Below are positions 32,962-36,025 of a DNA stretch of 64,000 nucleotides, one piece after another (position 1 is the first letter of the stretch; each line of letters opens with the position of its first letter). Both the position numbers and the translations under genes were made by a program. Under the pieces are notes generated by a model that saw only the letters and a program-made list of their open reading frames with translations, had not been told where the DNA came from and searched no databases. This stretch comes from Escherichia phage LPEK22, in sequence record OK283619.1. The stretch is one strand, 5' to 3'.

Positions 32962-33384
32962 ATGAAGAAGTATATCGTTCTTATAACGGGTTCCCGTTCT
33001 ATAACTGAGCGGGATAAAATCTTCGCCAAACTGGATGAACTGTTAGATCCCCACGAGATCGAAACTTTTATAGAAGGTGAAGCGGTTGGTGTGGACTTGA
33101 TATCTCGTGATTGGTGTGAAATCAATTATGTCCATGTTACACCAATGGAGATCCCTAAGAATTATCACACGATATATGGGAAAGGCGCAGGAAACCAACG
33201 TAACAAAGATATGTTAGACAAAGCTATGACCCTGGCCAAACAAAAAGGTCTTGAGGTCTTTGGAATTGCATTATGGGATGGTTCGTCTACTGGGACGCAA
33301 GACATGATTACCCGCATGAAAAAAGCAGGTGTCAATGTCAATATCACTCTCATGGGCAAACCCAAAACCAAACGATTGTTATAA
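32962..33384 (+). CDS. SLOG / DprA-like Rossmann-fold protein (DUF2493-like), 140 aa, tentative
   Basis: MKKYIVLITGSRSITE...IETFIEGEAVGVD...GKGAGNQRNKDM resembles the SLOG (Smf/DprA/LOG) fold pattern. Recognition by eye only. Confidence 0.4.
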   Translation: MKKYIVLITGSRSITERDKIFAKLDELLDPHEIETFIEGEAVGVDLISRDWCEINYVHVTPMEIPKNYHTIYGKGAGNQRNKDMLDKAMTLAKQKGLEVFGIALWDGSSTGTQDMITRMKKAGVNVNITLMGKPKTKRLL

Positions 33385-33418
33385 ATATGTTTGCCTTCAC
33401 ACCCATATGGAGTTAGCT

Positions 33419-33589
33419 ATGCTGCAATTAATTTTGATTCTTTGCGTCGCTTTTACCATGTACTTTCTGGCGCGAATCAGTTATATCACACTAAATGATC
33501 TGAAAAATACACCACGCGAACCTAAATTTATATTTCTAAAGAAATACACCAAAAAGTTCTGCGAGAATTTTATCTATCATCTTCCGTGA
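33419..33589 (+). CDS. Small hydrophobic membrane protein (56 aa)
   Basis: One predicted TM helix (LQLILILCVAFTMYFLA). Start uncertain. Confidence 0.25.
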   Translation: MLQLILILCVAFTMYFLARISYITLNDLKNTPREPKFIFLKKYTKKFCENFIYHLP

Positions 33590-33590
33590 T

Positions 33591-33618
33591 TATAAATACC
33601 CCCAAAATTGGGGGTATT
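33591..33618 (+). promoter_or_regulatory. TATAAATA late-promoter-like box fused to a 9-bp-stem hairpin immediately upstream of the ATG at 33621
   Basis: tataaataccccc aaaatt gggggtattt. Arms aataccccc / gggggtatt. Confidence 0.45.
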
Positions 33619-33620
33619 TT

Positions 33621-34349
33621 ATGAACGCACAAATCTACGATGTCCTTTCCTCTGGTAATGCATTTAGCAACCCGCTTCCGTCCCTCTCCGGTCCCTCACA
33701 GGATTTAATCACCAGTGGTAGTACCAATATACCATTGATAACTGCCAACGCGACTCCGGAGATGCAGGCGGCTATGGTTGCTGGTGGACTAACACCAGAA
33801 AAACTCACAGCAGCCACCACCATGTATAGCGCCGCCAACACGGGGATAACGACACTGAACACATATGGCGACCAAAGTATCAATGACGCGTATTCTCGCA
33901 TCGGTACTTCCGTGTCATACAAATCAGGTCTGAAGGGTATATCACGAGAGCCAAACAATTGTGATTTGATCAACAAGGCTTTTGGTGTTGTTCAGGATTT
34001 AGGACGCCAATGGCTGAATGCTATGGAAGGTGCTCTACAGACCGTAACAAACAAGATATCGGAATTGTATGACATGATTATGGAAGGTGCCTCAGAAGGG
34101 ATGGCAAAACTACAGCAATTGGCTGCTGAAGTAACAGGACATATCAATGAGGCAATAACCGCAGTCAACGGGGTTATAAGTGATATTACAGATGGTATAG
34201 CCGCAGAACTTGCTCACATTGAAAGCATGATCAAAGAATGTCTAAACTTCTCTTTTGCGAATGTTCTTGGAGAATGGGCTAAAGATCTCTGTGCTGGAGG
34301 CGTTATTGATAAAATAGGGACTCCAGAATTAAAAGAGTCCCTGAAATAA
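33621..34349 (+). CDS. Hypothetical protein (242 aa)
   Basis: ATG immediately after the TATAAATA plus hairpin element at 33591-33618. Confidence 0.5.
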   Translation: MNAQIYDVLSSGNAFSNPLPSLSGPSQDLITSGSTNIPLITANATPEMQAAMVAGGLTPEKLTAATTMYSAANTGITTLNTYGDQSINDAYSRIGTSVSYKSGLKGISREPNNCDLINKAFGVVQDLGRQWLNAMEGALQTVTNKISELYDMIMEGASEGMAKLQQLAAEVTGHINEAITAVNGVISDITDGIAAELAHIESMIKECLNFSFANVLGEWAKDLCAGGVIDKIGTPELKESLK

Positions 34350-34970
34350 TTAATGTCTAGCGGGGAGAACTCCCACTGGTTCGATACCTTCCATCACCAG
34401 GGAGTTCACCCCAACATCACTCATTCGAATCCATACTTTACCGCCTGGTCTTATTTCATAGATGTTCATTTCATTACCCACAGCAGATCCATTAACGAAA
34501 ACACCCTGAGTGGCAATTCGGATCGGAGATTTGGTGTTATTAACTATCTGAAATGATATTGCAACGTCTCTGGTGATTTCTACGTCCCTTGCTTGAGTAT
34601 TCCTTCTGAGTTTGTCAAAGAAAGAAGGGTTGAAAGTCGCTATGATGCTATTATTCTGAGAGTAATAAATACTTGCGGATAGATATGGGATCTTTCCTTC
34701 GTCACCTTTCCTCAATAGGGGAATCGTGGTTTTCCAGTATGGTCTCAGTGACTGGTTGTTATCATCAAAACAACCAACAGCTTGAAGAGTCTGGAAGTTC
34801 TGAAAATCAGATACTACTTGATTCAGAATATTTTTATTGCATTTATCAATGTCGGCTGAGATGTTAACAGGTATGGTTCTGATTTCAGGATCCCAGAGGT
34901 CGGTTACAGAAATGACGGACGTGACAAAGATACGGCAACTTGTGAGTGCAAGCACCATTATCATCGTCAT
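34350..34970 (-). CDS. Hypothetical secreted or membrane protein (about 206 aa), antisense to the flanking genes
   Basis: Minus-strand ORF. ATG at 34970 gives a hydrophobic N-terminus (MTMIMVLALTSCRIF). The track start at 35048 is a TTG. Confidence 0.4.
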   Translation of the reverse strand: MTMIMVLALTSCRIFVTSVISVTDLWDPEIRTIPVNISADIDKCNKNILNQVVSDFQNFQTLQAVGCFDDNNQSLRPYWKTTIPLLRKGDEGKIPYLSASIYYSQNNSIIATFNPSFFDKLRRNTQARDVEITRDVAISFQIVNNTKSPIRIATQGVFVNGSAVGNEMNIYEIRPGGKVWIRMSDVGVNSLVMEGIEPVGVLPARH

Positions 34971-35033
34971 GATCCATTTTCTGAATCCGCGTATCAGGAA
35001 CACTAAAACGTTCTCCACAGCAAAGGTGCTAAC

Positions 35034-35531
35034 ATGACAGGTGTACAATTCAAAAACGAAAATCCTAATTTCGCGGCTTCCGATAAATGGCGCTTAACTA
35101 TCGGAGACCTGATATTGCTTACTCGTTCAATACATGACTTCAGTATTCCTGGAGTGTATTCTGAAGGTATCGAGGGACCATCCCCTGGCGATGTGCTCAA
35201 CTCCATACCTTCAGAACGTCTCACGTATGACCCCATCGTATTTACGTTCGTTATCGATGAGAGTTGGTACAACTGGGAACAGATTTACAATTGGATTGCG
35301 TCCAATGCTGGATCTGATTTAGCTGTTAGCCGTGACATCACCATCGACCTTCTTGATAACATGAATCGCCCTGTTGGTCTACAATTGTTGTTGGAAGAAG
35401 CCCGTCCCACAGCTTTGGACAACGTATTGGTGGATGTGGATGCTGCGGTTCCCCAACTGGTCACGACTGTCACGTTCAAATATTTGAAACTGACTCCGAC
35501 TCGCGTCACCCGCGAAATTGATAAACAATAA
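35034..35531 (+). CDS. Hypothetical protein (165 aa)
   Basis: ATG with RBS aaggtg. Confidence 0.5.
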   Translation: MTGVQFKNENPNFAASDKWRLTIGDLILLTRSIHDFSIPGVYSEGIEGPSPGDVLNSIPSERLTYDPIVFTFVIDESWYNWEQIYNWIASNAGSDLAVSRDITIDLLDNMNRPVGLQLLLEEARPTALDNVLVDVDAAVPQLVTTVTFKYLKLTPTRVTREIDKQ

Positions 35532-35569
35532 GTTATAATACAGAGAGTTGAAACAGCAGGGAATAAATC

Positions 35570-36025
35570 ATGAGCGAAACAAAACTTGAAACGATGAAAA
35601 CCGAAGATATAATGGCAGAATTGGAGCCTCTTATTTCGGTAAATCCTGAAGACATGAACTTAGACCAAATGTCATTGAAAATTGGTCGTTCGTGGATGAC
35701 TGTGCAACGCCATTATATTCGTGAAGGAAGATATCTGGAGTATCTAACTGGCAAATTCCGCCAAATAGATCTCTATTTACGCCGATTTTATGCAGGGGAA
35801 TTGCCGCCCAACGTTTATGTTGAACGCCCATTAAAAGTTCGACCCCTGAAATCTGATATAGATGTATGGGTAAAAGCAGATGATGATTATATCGAATTGT
35901 CTAGCATGCTTCAAGAGCAGAAAGCCAAAGTCAAGTTCATCGAAAGTTGCTTAGATCGTTTGAACAAACTCGGATATGAAGTGAAGAATGCTATTGATTG
36001 GCGAAAATATTTGGATGGGATGTAA
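35570..36025 (+). CDS. Hypothetical protein (151 aa)
   Basis: ATG with RBS caggga. TAATG overlap with the next gene. Confidence 0.5.
   Translation: MSETKLETMKTEDIMAELEPLISVNPEDMNLDQMSLKIGRSWMTVQRHYIREGRYLEYLTGKFRQIDLYLRRFYAGELPPNVYVERPLKVRPLKSDIDVWVKADDDYIELSSMLQEQKAKVKFIESCLDRLNKLGYEVKNAIDWRKYLDGM

What the first reader, a model, noticed from the sequence alone, without database searches (positions are those of the whole stretch)
34350..34970. Antisense secreted or membrane protein between forward-strand genes
A minus-strand ORF with a hydrophobic N-terminus (MTMIMVLALTSCRIF) sits tail-to-tail against the 242-aa gene, with zero spacer, and head-to-head against the ORF at 35034. Antisense exported proteins in phage genomes are often superinfection-exclusion or lysis-related.
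Basis: inference. Interest (0 to 1): 0.4.

Follow-up and report, generated by a model that had tools for sequence, protein, structure and literature searches.

The report
Conserved phage lipoprotein gene, function unknown
The antisense ORF is a real, strongly conserved gene for an exported lipoprotein (Pfam DUF7424) that is a core gene of Ackermannviridae phages. Its distant relatives sit in the immunity operons of P2-like prophages, so a role in shielding the infected cell from further phage attack is the best guess, but it is untested.

Summary
The window is a Kuttervirus (Ackermannviridae) genome, 99.8% identical to Salmonella phage BSP101. The minus-strand ORF is real. It shares back-to-back stop codons with the 242-aa gene and lies head-to-head with the gp3-like tail-completion gene.

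The start is GTG at 35003, preceded by a GGAG ribosome-binding site, and both are conserved in six Ackermannviridae genera. Only this start gives a canonical lipoprotein signal peptide (lipobox LTSC, Cys23, Arg at +2). dN/dS is 0.04-0.09.

The protein is Pfam DUF7424 (E=1e-60), already labelled 'putative lipoprotein' in some GenBank records. The lipobox Cys is invariant across 62 aligned members; two further Cys are nearly invariant. A confident AlphaFold model (pLDDT 92) has no convincing match among solved structures.

In Sajous1 virion mass spectrometry the products of both flanking genes are listed, but this gene's product is not. In 6 of 9 non-Ackermannviridae genomic contexts examined, DUF7424 lies directly downstream of a CI-type or HTH repressor on the same strand. 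Five of these are P2/HP1-like prophages. In two of them (Aeromonas, Rodentibacter) the repressor-BRCT-gene order matches the slot of the non-homologous exclusion gene glo in Vibrio phage K139.

Best reading: an outer-membrane lipoprotein mediating superinfection exclusion. No promoter or expression timing was found, and function is untested.

The parts
34350..35003 (-). CDS of a 217-aa DUF7424 lipoprotein precursor (GTG start 35003-35001; TAA stop 34352-34350)
   Evidence: ORF list and sequence. Pfam PF24199 at E=1.1e-60, 205 bits against a cut-off of 27. PHROG 3832. Same extent as BSP101 gp174 and Sajous1 gp167. dN/dS 0.04-0.09.
34938..35003 (-). Signal peptide, residues 1-22 (MFLIRGFRKWIMTMIMVLALTS): n-region with R5, R8, K9; hydrophobic core; lipobox L-T-S
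   Evidence: Passes the PS51257-type rule only from this start. The sequence varies among relatives but its character is conserved.
34935..34937 (-). Lipobox cysteine (Cys23), the predicted lipid-attachment site; the next residue (+2) is Arg
   Evidence: Invariant in a 62-sequence family alignment whose identities to the window protein fall to 13%. 161 of 195 family members pass the lipobox rule; +2 residues are K 94, R 47, D 11.
35013..35016 (-). Shine-Dalgarno GGAG, with 9 nt between it and the GTG start
   Evidence: GGAG followed by GTG is conserved in Kuttervirus, Taipeivirus, Agtrevirus, a Dickeya Aglimvirinae phage, Miltonvirus and Nezavisimistyvirus. Annotated as an RBS in Maynard and Menlow.
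34968..34970 (-).
   Evidence: phiMAM1 and Bue1 have no ATG between the conserved GTG and the lipobox Cys. Starting here puts Cys at position 12 with no K/R, which fails the lipobox rule.
34308..34342 (-). Terminator-like hairpin (9-bp stem, 9-nt loop) plus AUUUUAU tail, 8 nt after the stop codon and inside the 3' end of the convergent 242-aa gene
   Evidence: Folding energy -14.7 kcal/mol, z=-4.2, 0 of 200 shuffles fold as well. Unrelated hairpins followed by U-runs occur at the same place in Menlow (annotated there as a terminator) and phiMAM1 (z=-4.9). The consensus scan did not report it, presumably because the 9-nt loop exceeds the scan's 3-8 nt limit.
35004..35033 (.). 30-bp divergent intergenic region holding the two back-to-back ribosome-binding sites; too short to hold either promoter
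   Evidence: Sequence. The length is conserved at 28-34 bp in six genera.
33621..34349 (+). Convergent neighbour: 242-aa DUF7217 protein, a virion component, preceded by a late-promoter-like TATAAATA at 33591-33598
   Evidence: Pfam DUF7217 at E=3.6e-101. TATAAATA match. Its Sajous1 orthologue gp166 was detected in virions.
35034..35531 (+). Divergent neighbour: gp3-like tail completion / sheath stabiliser protein
   Evidence: PHROG 45. Annotations. Sajous1 gp168 was detected in virions. The head-to-head pairing with DUF7424 is also kept in Aeromonas phage phiA8-29 and Vibrio phage D506.

Best explanation
The ORF is a monocistronic gene for a 217-aa prolipoprotein of family DUF7424.

Shown by sequence:
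- It starts at a conserved GTG with a GGAG ribosome-binding site.
- It has a canonical Sec/SPase-II signal peptide with lipobox Cys23.
- A hairpin plus U-tract follows its stop codon.

Inferred from established lipoprotein biology:
- The precursor is exported, lipidated on Cys23 and cleaved by signal peptidase II.
- There a ~195-aa two-part globular domain folds, probably with a Cys55-Cys78 disulfide.

Inferred from context:
- It is not part of the virion. It acts in the envelope of the infected cell as a 'lytic conversion' or superinfection-exclusion factor.
- It would block a periplasmic or outer-membrane step of genome delivery by later-arriving phages, or stop progeny being wasted on cell debris.
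- The working analogues are T5 Llp, Cor, T4 Sp/Imm and K139 Glo.
- In temperate relatives the same protein is made from the repressor operon of the prophage.
For: Real gene:
- Pfam DUF7424 at E=1e-60.
- 53 close homologues; those on long contigs are on ~150-160 kb contigs.
- dN/dS 0.04-0.09.
- GTG plus GGAG conserved in six genera.
- Terminator-like hairpins downstream in three genera.

Exported lipoprotein:
- Only GTG 35003 gives a PS51257-compliant signal.
- Cys23 is invariant and C55/C78 are at least 90% conserved over 62 sequences whose identity falls to 13%.
- 161 of 195 family members pass the lipobox rule.

Not a virion protein: Sajous1 virion LC-MS/MS lists the flanking products gp166 and gp168. 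gp167, which is this gene's orthologue, is not mentioned anywhere in the main text.

Separate transcription unit: it is the only minus-strand gene within ~38 kb of + strand genes.

Immunity-type context:
- In 6 of 9 non-Ackermannviridae loci examined, DUF7424 lies directly downstream of a repressor on the same strand, with gaps of 21-34 bp or 4-bp overlaps in four of them. In five loci, all P2/HP1-like prophages, the repressor is of the CI/S24 type: Haemophilus, Aeromonas, Rodentibacter, Gallibacterium and one metagenome. In the sixth, a TARA metagenome phage, it is an HTH_3 protein 227 bp upstream.
- In Aeromonas and Rodentibacter the order repressor-BRCT-DUF7424 matches cI-orf2(BRCT)-glo in K139; in Aeromonas the integrase follows directly, as in K139. 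Glo is annotated 'periplasmic protein; involved in phage exclusion' (PMC4870250).
- In Vibrio Ackermannviridae phage 1.244.A a family member lies just upstream of a tailspike gene.
Against: - There is no experimental datum on function, localisation or timing.
- No sigma-70-like or TATAAATA promoter was found upstream, so early expression is not shown.
- By my recollection, Ackermannviridae adsorb through tailspikes to polysaccharides, and no outer-membrane protein target is known; this was not checked here.
- The very old head-to-head linkage with the gp3-like tail gene could instead point to a morphogenesis-linked role.
- A position in a repressor operon also fits lysogenic-conversion functions other than exclusion.
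- 3 of the 9 bacterial contexts are not clearly in a prophage repressor operon.
Confidence: 0.45

Rival explanations
1. An envelope-modifying or 'conversion' lipoprotein whose benefit is not phage exclusion. Examples would be stabilising the outer membrane during infection, inhibiting a host periplasmic enzyme, or giving the lysogen a fitness or virulence trait, as the lambda Bor lipoprotein does.
Confidence: 0.2
2. A lysis-related protein: an outer-membrane spanin component, or a periplasmic regulator of the holin or endolysin that sets lysis timing.
For: It is a lipoprotein, as o-spanins and u-spanins are. T4-like phages do use periplasmic domains (RI) for lysis inhibition (established knowledge).
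Against: There is no adjacent or embedded i-spanin gene; the neighbours are virion proteins. The C-terminus is not hydrophobic, so there is no TM segment. The mature part is a 195-aa globular domain with pLDDT 92, not a short proline-rich peptide. A Rz-like spanin and an i-spanin are annotated elsewhere in a Kuttervirus genome. Expression from a prophage repressor operon does not fit a lysis function.
Confidence: 0.08
3. A virion or tail-assembly factor functionally tied to the gp3-like tail-completion protein.
For: It is embedded among structural genes. The head-to-head pairing with the gp3-like gene is kept even in phages where the protein is only 22-33% identical to other family members and the other neighbour differs. 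Synonymous-site conservation is raised in the first 25 codons of gp3.
Against: An invariant lipoprotein export signal would place it in the periplasm, away from cytoplasmic tail assembly. It is not listed in the Sajous1 virion proteome although both neighbours are. Its homologues sit in prophage repressor operons far from the tail genes.
Confidence: 0.05
4. Not a functional gene: a chance antisense ORF or a decaying remnant.
For: Several GenBank records annotate it shortened (204-206 aa in kage and Vi01; 102-107 aa in phiMAM1 and Bue1) or leave the region unannotated.
Against: The full-length ORF with GTG start is intact in every genus examined. dN/dS is 0.04-0.09. Pfam match at E=1e-60. High-confidence fold prediction.
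Confidence: 0.01

Closest known systems
Pfam DUF7424 (PF24199) / PHROG 3832; GenBank 'putative (conserved) lipoprotein' of Kuttervirus phages such as Marshall, Maynard gp69 and kage_37
   Same: It is this family. The match covers the whole mature domain at 205 bits. The protein is 100% identical to a cluster of 67 member sequences that includes a Salmonella phage SWJM-01 protein.
   Different: Nothing differs; the family simply has no assigned function. The full-text search found no paper mentioning it.
Glo of Vibrio phage K139 (periplasmic phage-exclusion protein in the cI-int lysogeny operon)
   Same: Distant DUF7424 members occupy a matching slot. The order is repressor - BRCT protein - X in the Aeromonas and Rodentibacter prophages, with the integrase directly following in Aeromonas as in K139. 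Both proteins are exported to the periplasm.
   Different: They are not homologous (hhalign probability 1.5%). Glo is 137 aa, and its N-terminus looks like an ordinary cleaved signal peptide rather than a lipobox (my reading of the translation). The window gene is in a lytic phage.
T5 Llp and the Cor proteins of T1/phi80/N15 (outer-membrane lipoproteins that block FhuA)
   Same: [quoted passage not shown] T5 Llp is cited in PMC9409062. By my recollection (not checked here), llp is a lone gene transcribed opposite to the neighbouring late receptor-binding gene, like the antisense layout seen in this window.
   Different: No sequence or fold similarity was found. Llp and Cor are about 60-80 aa, against about 195 aa mature here. 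The window gene is not next to a receptor-binding gene, and no target is known.
T4 Sp (spackle) and Imm
   Same: Envelope-located exclusion proteins of a strictly lytic contractile-tailed phage that act at the periplasmic stage of genome delivery (established knowledge). This is the working analogy for a lytic myovirus.
   Different: No homology. Sp and Imm are not lipoproteins and are much smaller.
Rz1-type o-spanins and T1 gp11-type u-spanins
   Same: N-terminal lipoprotein signal.
   Different: No i-spanin partner, no C-terminal TM segment, and a large globular domain. Spanins are annotated elsewhere in a Kuttervirus genome.

Membership tests
Pfam DUF7424 (PF24199) | Whole-protein score above the curated gathering cut-off (27 bits) | tested here: met
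   205.2 bits, E=1.1e-60, residues 26-216 on profile positions 2-195 of 196. Ten remote relatives also score 88-138 bits.
Bacterial lipoprotein (SPase II substrate, PROSITE PS51257 rule) | K/R in the first 7 residues, an uncharged hydrophobic stretch, lipobox [LIVMFWSTAG]2-[LIVMFYSTAGCQ]-[AGS]-C, and Cys at position 15-35 | tested here: met
   From GTG 35003 the rule is met with R5 and Cys23 (A-L-T-S-C). It is not met from any of the other five candidate starts.
Bacterial lipoprotein (SPase II substrate, PROSITE PS51257 rule) | Lipobox cysteine conserved across the family | tested here: met
   It is the only invariant column in the 62-sequence alignment A2. 161 of 195 members pass the rule, and many of the failures look like mis-called N-termini.
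Bacterial lipoprotein (SPase II substrate, PROSITE PS51257 rule) | Actual lipidation and globomycin-sensitive cleavage | not testable with these tools
   Needs palmitate labelling or globomycin treatment.
Outer-membrane (Lol-sorted) lipoprotein of Enterobacterales | No Asp at position +2 after the lipid-modified Cys | tested here: met
   +2 is Arg here and in all the Ackermannviridae homologues aligned. Across the family the counts are K 94, R 47, D 11. Actual localisation is untested.
Llp / Cor-type receptor-blocking exclusion lipoproteins | Sequence or structural homology to Llp or Cor | tested here: not met
Llp / Cor-type receptor-blocking exclusion lipoproteins | Gene adjacent to the receptor-binding protein gene | tested here: not met
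   In the window the neighbours are DUF7217 and the gp3-like gene. Only Vibrio phage 1.244.A has a member next to a tailspike gene.
Llp / Cor-type receptor-blocking exclusion lipoproteins | Confers resistance to (super)infection when expressed; early expression | not testable with these tools
   No promoter was identified, and my one literature search for Kuttervirus transcriptomics returned nothing relevant.
K139 Glo family | Sequence homology to Glo | tested here: not met
   hhalign of Glo against the DUF7424 alignment A2 gives probability 1.5%.
K139 Glo family | Position in the repressor-(BRCT)-X-int lysogeny operon | tested here: met
   Met for distant DUF7424 members in prophages (compared). 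It does not apply to the lytic phage in the window.
Spanins (o-spanin / u-spanin) | Partner i-spanin gene adjacent or overlapping (o-spanin), or a C-terminal TM segment (u-spanin) | tested here: not met
   The flanking genes are virion proteins. The C-terminus ...GIEPVGVLPARH is not hydrophobic. The domain is globular.
Virion structural protein | Detected in purified particles | tested here: not met
   The Sajous1 virion LC-MS/MS table lists gp166 and gp168 but not gp167, the orthologue. The raw supplementary table was not inspected for gp167, so this is an absence from the published list only.

The most novel reading that the evidence does not exclude
DUF7424 would be a previously unrecognised class of phage 'envelope immunity' lipoprotein, with no convincing match among solved structures. 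It is shared by strictly lytic Ackermannviridae, where it is a core gene always placed divergent from the gp3-like tail gene, and by P2/HP1-like prophages, where it is made from the repressor operon. [quoted passage not shown]
Probability: 0.3. Interest if true: 0.6.

Novelty: new member of a known kind. Interest (0 to 1): 0.4.

Why it matters
Ackermannviridae (Kuttervirus and relatives) are among the phages most often used in Salmonella, E. coli O157 and Klebsiella biocontrol cocktails. A core gene that makes infected cells refuse other phages would affect how cocktails are designed and how co-infection plays out.

The link found here gives a concrete, cheap experiment for a family with no literature: plasmid expression, wild type against C23A, followed by a phage panel. 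The link is that the same family sits in the repressor operon of P2-like prophages, in two cases in the slot of a known exclusion gene.

The work also corrects the gene model. The start is a GTG; the ATG-start, 102-aa and 107-aa versions in several GenBank records are truncations.

Tried and rejected
- **Sajous1 'gp214-217 operon'.** I first suspected that this 'ferrojan horse operon' (PMC10892097) was this locus. The GenBank coordinates show it is elsewhere in the genome. Our orthologue is gp167.
- **Promoter hunt.** There is no sigma-70-like site better than 7 of 12 within 250 nt upstream, no TATAAATA on the minus strand, and no motif shared with the other lone minus-strand ORFs. The wider intergenic regions of phiA8-29 and D506 show nothing recognisable either. 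The nearest consensus-like minus-strand site (35914-35886, 10 of 12) is about 880 nt upstream, inside uvsY, and I do not rely on it.
- **Related-loci scan.** The search for related loci with the divergent alignment failed because no stretch was conserved enough.
- **Glo homology.** Rejected.
- **Isolated temperate phages.** tblastn with two prophage members (P0179, P0187) found no isolated temperate phage carrying the gene.
- **Literature.** A search for DUF7424 found 0 papers. The Kuttervirus transcriptomics search found nothing relevant.
- **Rfam.** Nothing meaningful in 33400-35700.

Full report
**What the window is.** The region 33500-35600 is 99.8% identical to Salmonella phage BSP101, and more than 200 Ackermannviridae records hold most of it. 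The annotated relatives kage and BSP101 (Kuttervirus) show the same gene order. That order is major head protein, small genes, DUF7217 'structural protein', a minus-strand gene, the gp3-like tail completion/sheath stabiliser, UvsY, exonuclease and helicase. Within the 64-kb window almost every long ORF is on the + strand. The ORF in question is the only minus-strand ORF of at least 80 aa between coordinates 70 and 38300.

**Checking the observation.** The minus-strand ORF runs 34350..35048 (232 aa from the first TTG) and contains MTMIMVLALTSCRIF. Its stop codon (34350-34352) abuts the stop of the 242-aa + gene (34347-34349), and the + ORF at 35034 lies head-to-head with it. So the description is correct. 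No + strand ORF longer than 67 aa overlaps the interval, and Rfam finds nothing meaningful there.

**The true start.**
- Candidate starts upstream of the lipobox cysteine are TTG 35048, GTG 35018, GTG 35003, and ATG 34970, 34964 and 34958.
- I compared nine loci from six genera: Kuttervirus, Taipeivirus, Agtrevirus, a Dickeya Aglimvirinae phage, Miltonvirus and Nezavisimistyvirus.
- In all of them a GTG lies 20-22 codons before the Cys. It is preceded by GGAG, and the gap to the gp3-like start codon is 28-34 bp.
- phiMAM1 and Bue1 have no ATG at all between this GTG and the Cys.
- Only GTG 35003 gives a signal peptide that satisfies the PROSITE PS51257-type rule, with R5 and Cys at position 23.
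- BSP101 gp174 and Sajous1 gp167 are annotated with this 654-bp extent, and Maynard and Menlow are annotated from the same GTG.
- kage and Vi01 are annotated too short. phiMAM1 gp072 and Bue1 gp118 are annotated as 102- and 107-aa fragments, although intact 221- and 223-aa ORFs exist.

**It is a real, constrained gene.** The protein matches Pfam DUF7424 at E=1.1e-60 and PHROG 3832. The search found 53 homologues of 51-100% identity, those on long contigs lying on ~150-160 kb contigs. dN/dS is as follows:

| Pair | dN/dS | dS |
|---|---|---|
| window - Maynard | 0.043 | 1.34 |
| Maynard - Vi01 | 0.069 | 0.15 |
| phiDP23.1 - SNUABM-02 | 0.094 | 0.69 |

A hairpin follows the stop codon, lying inside the 3' end of the convergent gene. 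It has a 9-bp stem, a folding energy of -14.7 kcal/mol, z=-4.2, and an AUUUUAU tail. Menlow and phiMAM1 carry unrelated hairpins followed by U-runs at the same place, and the Menlow one is annotated as a terminator. The gene therefore looks like a self-contained transcription unit with its own ribosome-binding site and terminator. The promoter is the missing piece.

**Export signal and fold.**
- Within Ackermannviridae the N-terminal 22 residues vary in sequence but keep basic residues, a hydrophobic core and an L-x-[SG]-C lipobox. The Cys is followed by R-I-F/Y-V-T.
- A profile search of 1.84 billion representative proteins found 83 clusters. Most are 185-240 aa, and most begin with a lipoprotein signal. 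Ten that I tested are all DUF7424 by Pfam.
- In a 62-sequence alignment with identities as low as 13%, the lipobox Cys is the only invariant column. C55, C78, N155 and S195 are at least 90% conserved. Two conserved cysteines in the mature part fit a disulfide formed in the periplasm; this is an inference.
- 161 of 195 family members pass the strict lipobox rule. The +2 residue is K in 94, R in 47 and D in 11. In Enterobacterales a non-Asp +2 residue means Lol-dependent sorting to the outer membrane (established rule), and here it is Arg.
- With the deep alignment, AlphaFold gives pLDDT 91.8 and pTM 0.85. The model has an N-terminal alpha/beta part (residues 25-137) and a C-terminal mostly-beta part (147-212).
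- BFVD returns only other DUF7424 phage proteins.
- PDB sequence and profile searches, NCBIfam and PADLOC are empty.
- No paper in the searched library mentions DUF7424.

**Context in Ackermannviridae.** The gene is head-to-head with the gp3-like gene in the following:
- Kuttervirus
- Taipeivirus
- Agtrevirus
- a Dickeya Aglimvirinae phage
- Miltonvirus
- Nezavisimistyvirus
- Tedavirus (Aeromonas phage phiA8-29)
- the 157-kb Vibrio phage D506

In the last two the other neighbour differs. So the divergent pairing is old, and the gene appears to be a core gene of the family. Vibrio phage 1.244.A is an exception: there a family member annotated 'membrane lipoprotein' lies just upstream of a tailspike gene.

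In the virion LC-MS/MS of Kuttervirus Sajous1 (PMC10892097), gp166 (DUF7217) and gp168 (gp3-like) were each detected with 8 spectra. gp167 is the orthologue by coordinates, and it is not mentioned anywhere in the main text. That is consistent with a non-virion protein, though it is only an absence from a published list.

**Context outside Ackermannviridae: the most informative result.** A profile of the proteobacterial subfamily retrieved proteins that their sources name 'DUF7424 family protein'. They come from Alcaligenaceae, Aeromonas and Pasteurellaceae. I examined nine distinct genomic contexts.

| Locus / host | Arrangement |
|---|---|
| Haemophilus haemolyticus, HP1/P2-like prophage | cI - small ORF - DUF7424 - ORF - ParE - int |
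| Aeromonas salmonicida, P2-like prophage | S24 repressor - BRCT protein - DUF7424 - int; 21-bp gap upstream, 4-bp overlap with int |
| Rodentibacter, P2-like prophage | repressor - BRCT - DUF7424, with a 4-bp overlap |
| Gallibacterium, P2-like prophage | repressor - DUF7424, 34-bp gap |
| Metagenome, P2-like prophage | repressor - DUF7424, 26-bp gap |
| TARA metagenome phage | HTH_3 repressor - DUF7424 (227-bp gap), followed by a methyltransferase and DndB |
| Castellaniella | at an island edge next to BrnT/BrnA, an integrase remnant and phage lysis genes |
| Alcaligenes and one other genome (two loci) | no clear prophage |

In Vibrio phage K139 the arrangement is cI - orf2 (BRCT) - glo - int. 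Glo is annotated 'periplasmic protein; involved in phage exclusion', and PMC4870250 calls it the K139 family immunity gene. The Aeromonas and Rodentibacter prophages have the same repressor-BRCT-X order, and in Aeromonas the integrase follows directly, as in K139. Glo is not homologous to DUF7424 (hhalign probability 1.5%), so this is a positional analogy and not shared ancestry.

The link between the prophage and Ackermannviridae branches is supported in both directions. tblastn with the Haemophilus protein finds the Taipeivirus orthologues over 92% of its length.

**Mechanism proposed.**
- Shown by sequence:
  - a monocistronic minus-strand gene;
  - a conserved GTG and Shine-Dalgarno site;
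  - a canonical lipoprotein signal;
  - conserved cysteines;
  - strong purifying selection;
  - a terminator-like hairpin.
- Inferred from the established lipoprotein pathway: Sec export, Lgt/LspA/Lnt processing at Cys23, and Lol sorting to the inner leaflet of the outer membrane.
- Inferred from context: the protein acts in the cell envelope rather than in the particle. It serves the phage by making the occupied cell refractory to further genome delivery, or by protecting progeny from debris. T5 Llp, Cor, T4 Sp/Imm and K139 Glo act in this way.

The carriers identified here are Ackermannviridae, Ackermannviridae-like Vibrio phages and P2-like elements with sheath and tube genes. An attractive but unsupported guess is therefore that the target is a periplasmic step common to contractile-tail injection. 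I put the exclusion reading at about 0.45.

**What weakens it.**
- No promoter or expression timing could be established.
- Synonymous-site conservation in the gp3-like gene is raised in codons 1-25 and 56-90, at 0.53-0.65 against a background of about 0.40. This might mark an embedded promoter or 5' UTR, but 5' coding effects could explain the first peak.
- The tight and ancient linkage to the gp3-like gene is not explained by an exclusion role.
- A place in a repressor operon also fits other conversion functions.
- There is no similarity to any characterised exclusion protein.

**Rivals.**
- A non-exclusion envelope or conversion role: about 0.2.
- A lysis or spanin-like role: about 0.08. 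There is no i-spanin partner, no C-terminal TM segment, the domain is globular, spanins are annotated elsewhere in a Kuttervirus genome, and a prophage repressor operon does not fit lysis.
- A virion or assembly role: about 0.05. The export signal and the absence from the virion list argue against it.
- A non-gene: about 0.01.

The remaining probability is for functions I have not thought of.

**Novelty and verdict.** The ORF and its lipoprotein nature are already in public annotation, as 'putative lipoprotein', 'conserved hypothetical lipoprotein' and DUF7424, so the bare observation is not new. Four things are new here:
- the corrected start;
- the family-wide invariant lipobox;
- the absence of any solved structural relative;
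- the recurrent placement of distant members in P2-like prophage repressor operons, in two cases in the slot of a known exclusion gene.

If the function holds, this is a new member of a known kind (phage envelope-exclusion lipoproteins) with an unrelated fold. Interest is moderate at 0.4. It is a testable hypothesis for a core gene of a therapeutically used phage family, not a surprise in kind.

Noticed in passing
L016 2284-2949 (Serratia phage phiMAM1) and L017 2277-2948 (Erwinia phage Bue1): The GenBank/RefSeq records annotate only 102- and 107-aa C-terminal fragments (gp072, gp118) and leave about 390 bp 'empty'. Intact 221- and 223-aa GTG-start lipoprotein ORFs fill the gap. PHROG 37762 (107 positions, matching residues 137-230 of the 232-aa ORF) may have been built from such truncated models. 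kage_37 and Vi01_141 are also annotated too short.
   Followed up: yes
window 33591-33598 and 33380-33387 (+): Two of only three exact TATAAATA (T4 late-promoter consensus) matches in the whole 64-kb window lie here. One is 23 nt upstream of the DUF7217 gene start. The count for the whole window is not above chance (3 found, 2.5 expected).
   Followed up: partly
window 35034-35108 and 35199-35303 (inside the gp3-like gene): Synonymous-codon identity across seven Ackermannviridae gp3 genes is raised in codons 1-25 (0.53-0.58) and 56-90 (0.51-0.65), against about 0.40 elsewhere. This could mark an embedded promoter or 5' UTR for the divergent lipoprotein gene, or some other overlapping signal.
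   Followed up: partly
window 33329-33589 (+): A small ORF just upstream of the DUF7217 gene encodes a peptide with a hydrophobic stretch (MLQLILILCVAFTMYFLARISY...). It is annotated at different lengths in relatives (171-255 nt). It may be a small membrane protein.
   Followed up: no
L018 3495-4124 (Vibrio phage 1.244.A): In this Vibrio Ackermannviridae phage a DUF7424 'membrane lipoprotein' lies on the same strand as its neighbours and directly upstream of a pectin-lyase-fold tailspike gene. The same phage family therefore has the gene in a different position. I did not check whether this phage also has a copy next to its gp3-like gene.
   Followed up: partly
L008 9353-9979, L023 6498-7004, L013 2194-3099: A BRCT-domain protein sits between the repressor and the exported protein (DUF7424 or Glo) in three P2-like prophage lysogeny operons from different hosts (Aeromonas, Rodentibacter, Vibrio). 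It appears to be a conserved but unexplained partner.
   Followed up: no
window 34350-35003 compared with the phage collection: Kuttervirus alleles of this gene fall into two classes: at least 95% identical (130 records) and about 82% identical (45 records, the Vi01/Maynard type). None lies between 90% and 95%.
   Followed up: no
L025 7869-10877 (TARA metagenome phage): Here the repressor-DUF7424 pair is followed on the same strand by an N6/N4 methyltransferase, a DndB-like protein and further genes. This looks like a defence or anti-defence islet in a temperate phage.
   Followed up: no
PMC10892097 compared with MW021757 (L003 4642-7029): The paper's Sajous1 'gp214 tail completion protein', which heads its proposed ferritin-entry operon, is a 795-aa protein annotated 'hypothetical' in GenBank. 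The gp3-like tail completion gene is gp168. The 'tail completion' label is therefore used for two different proteins.
   Followed up: partly
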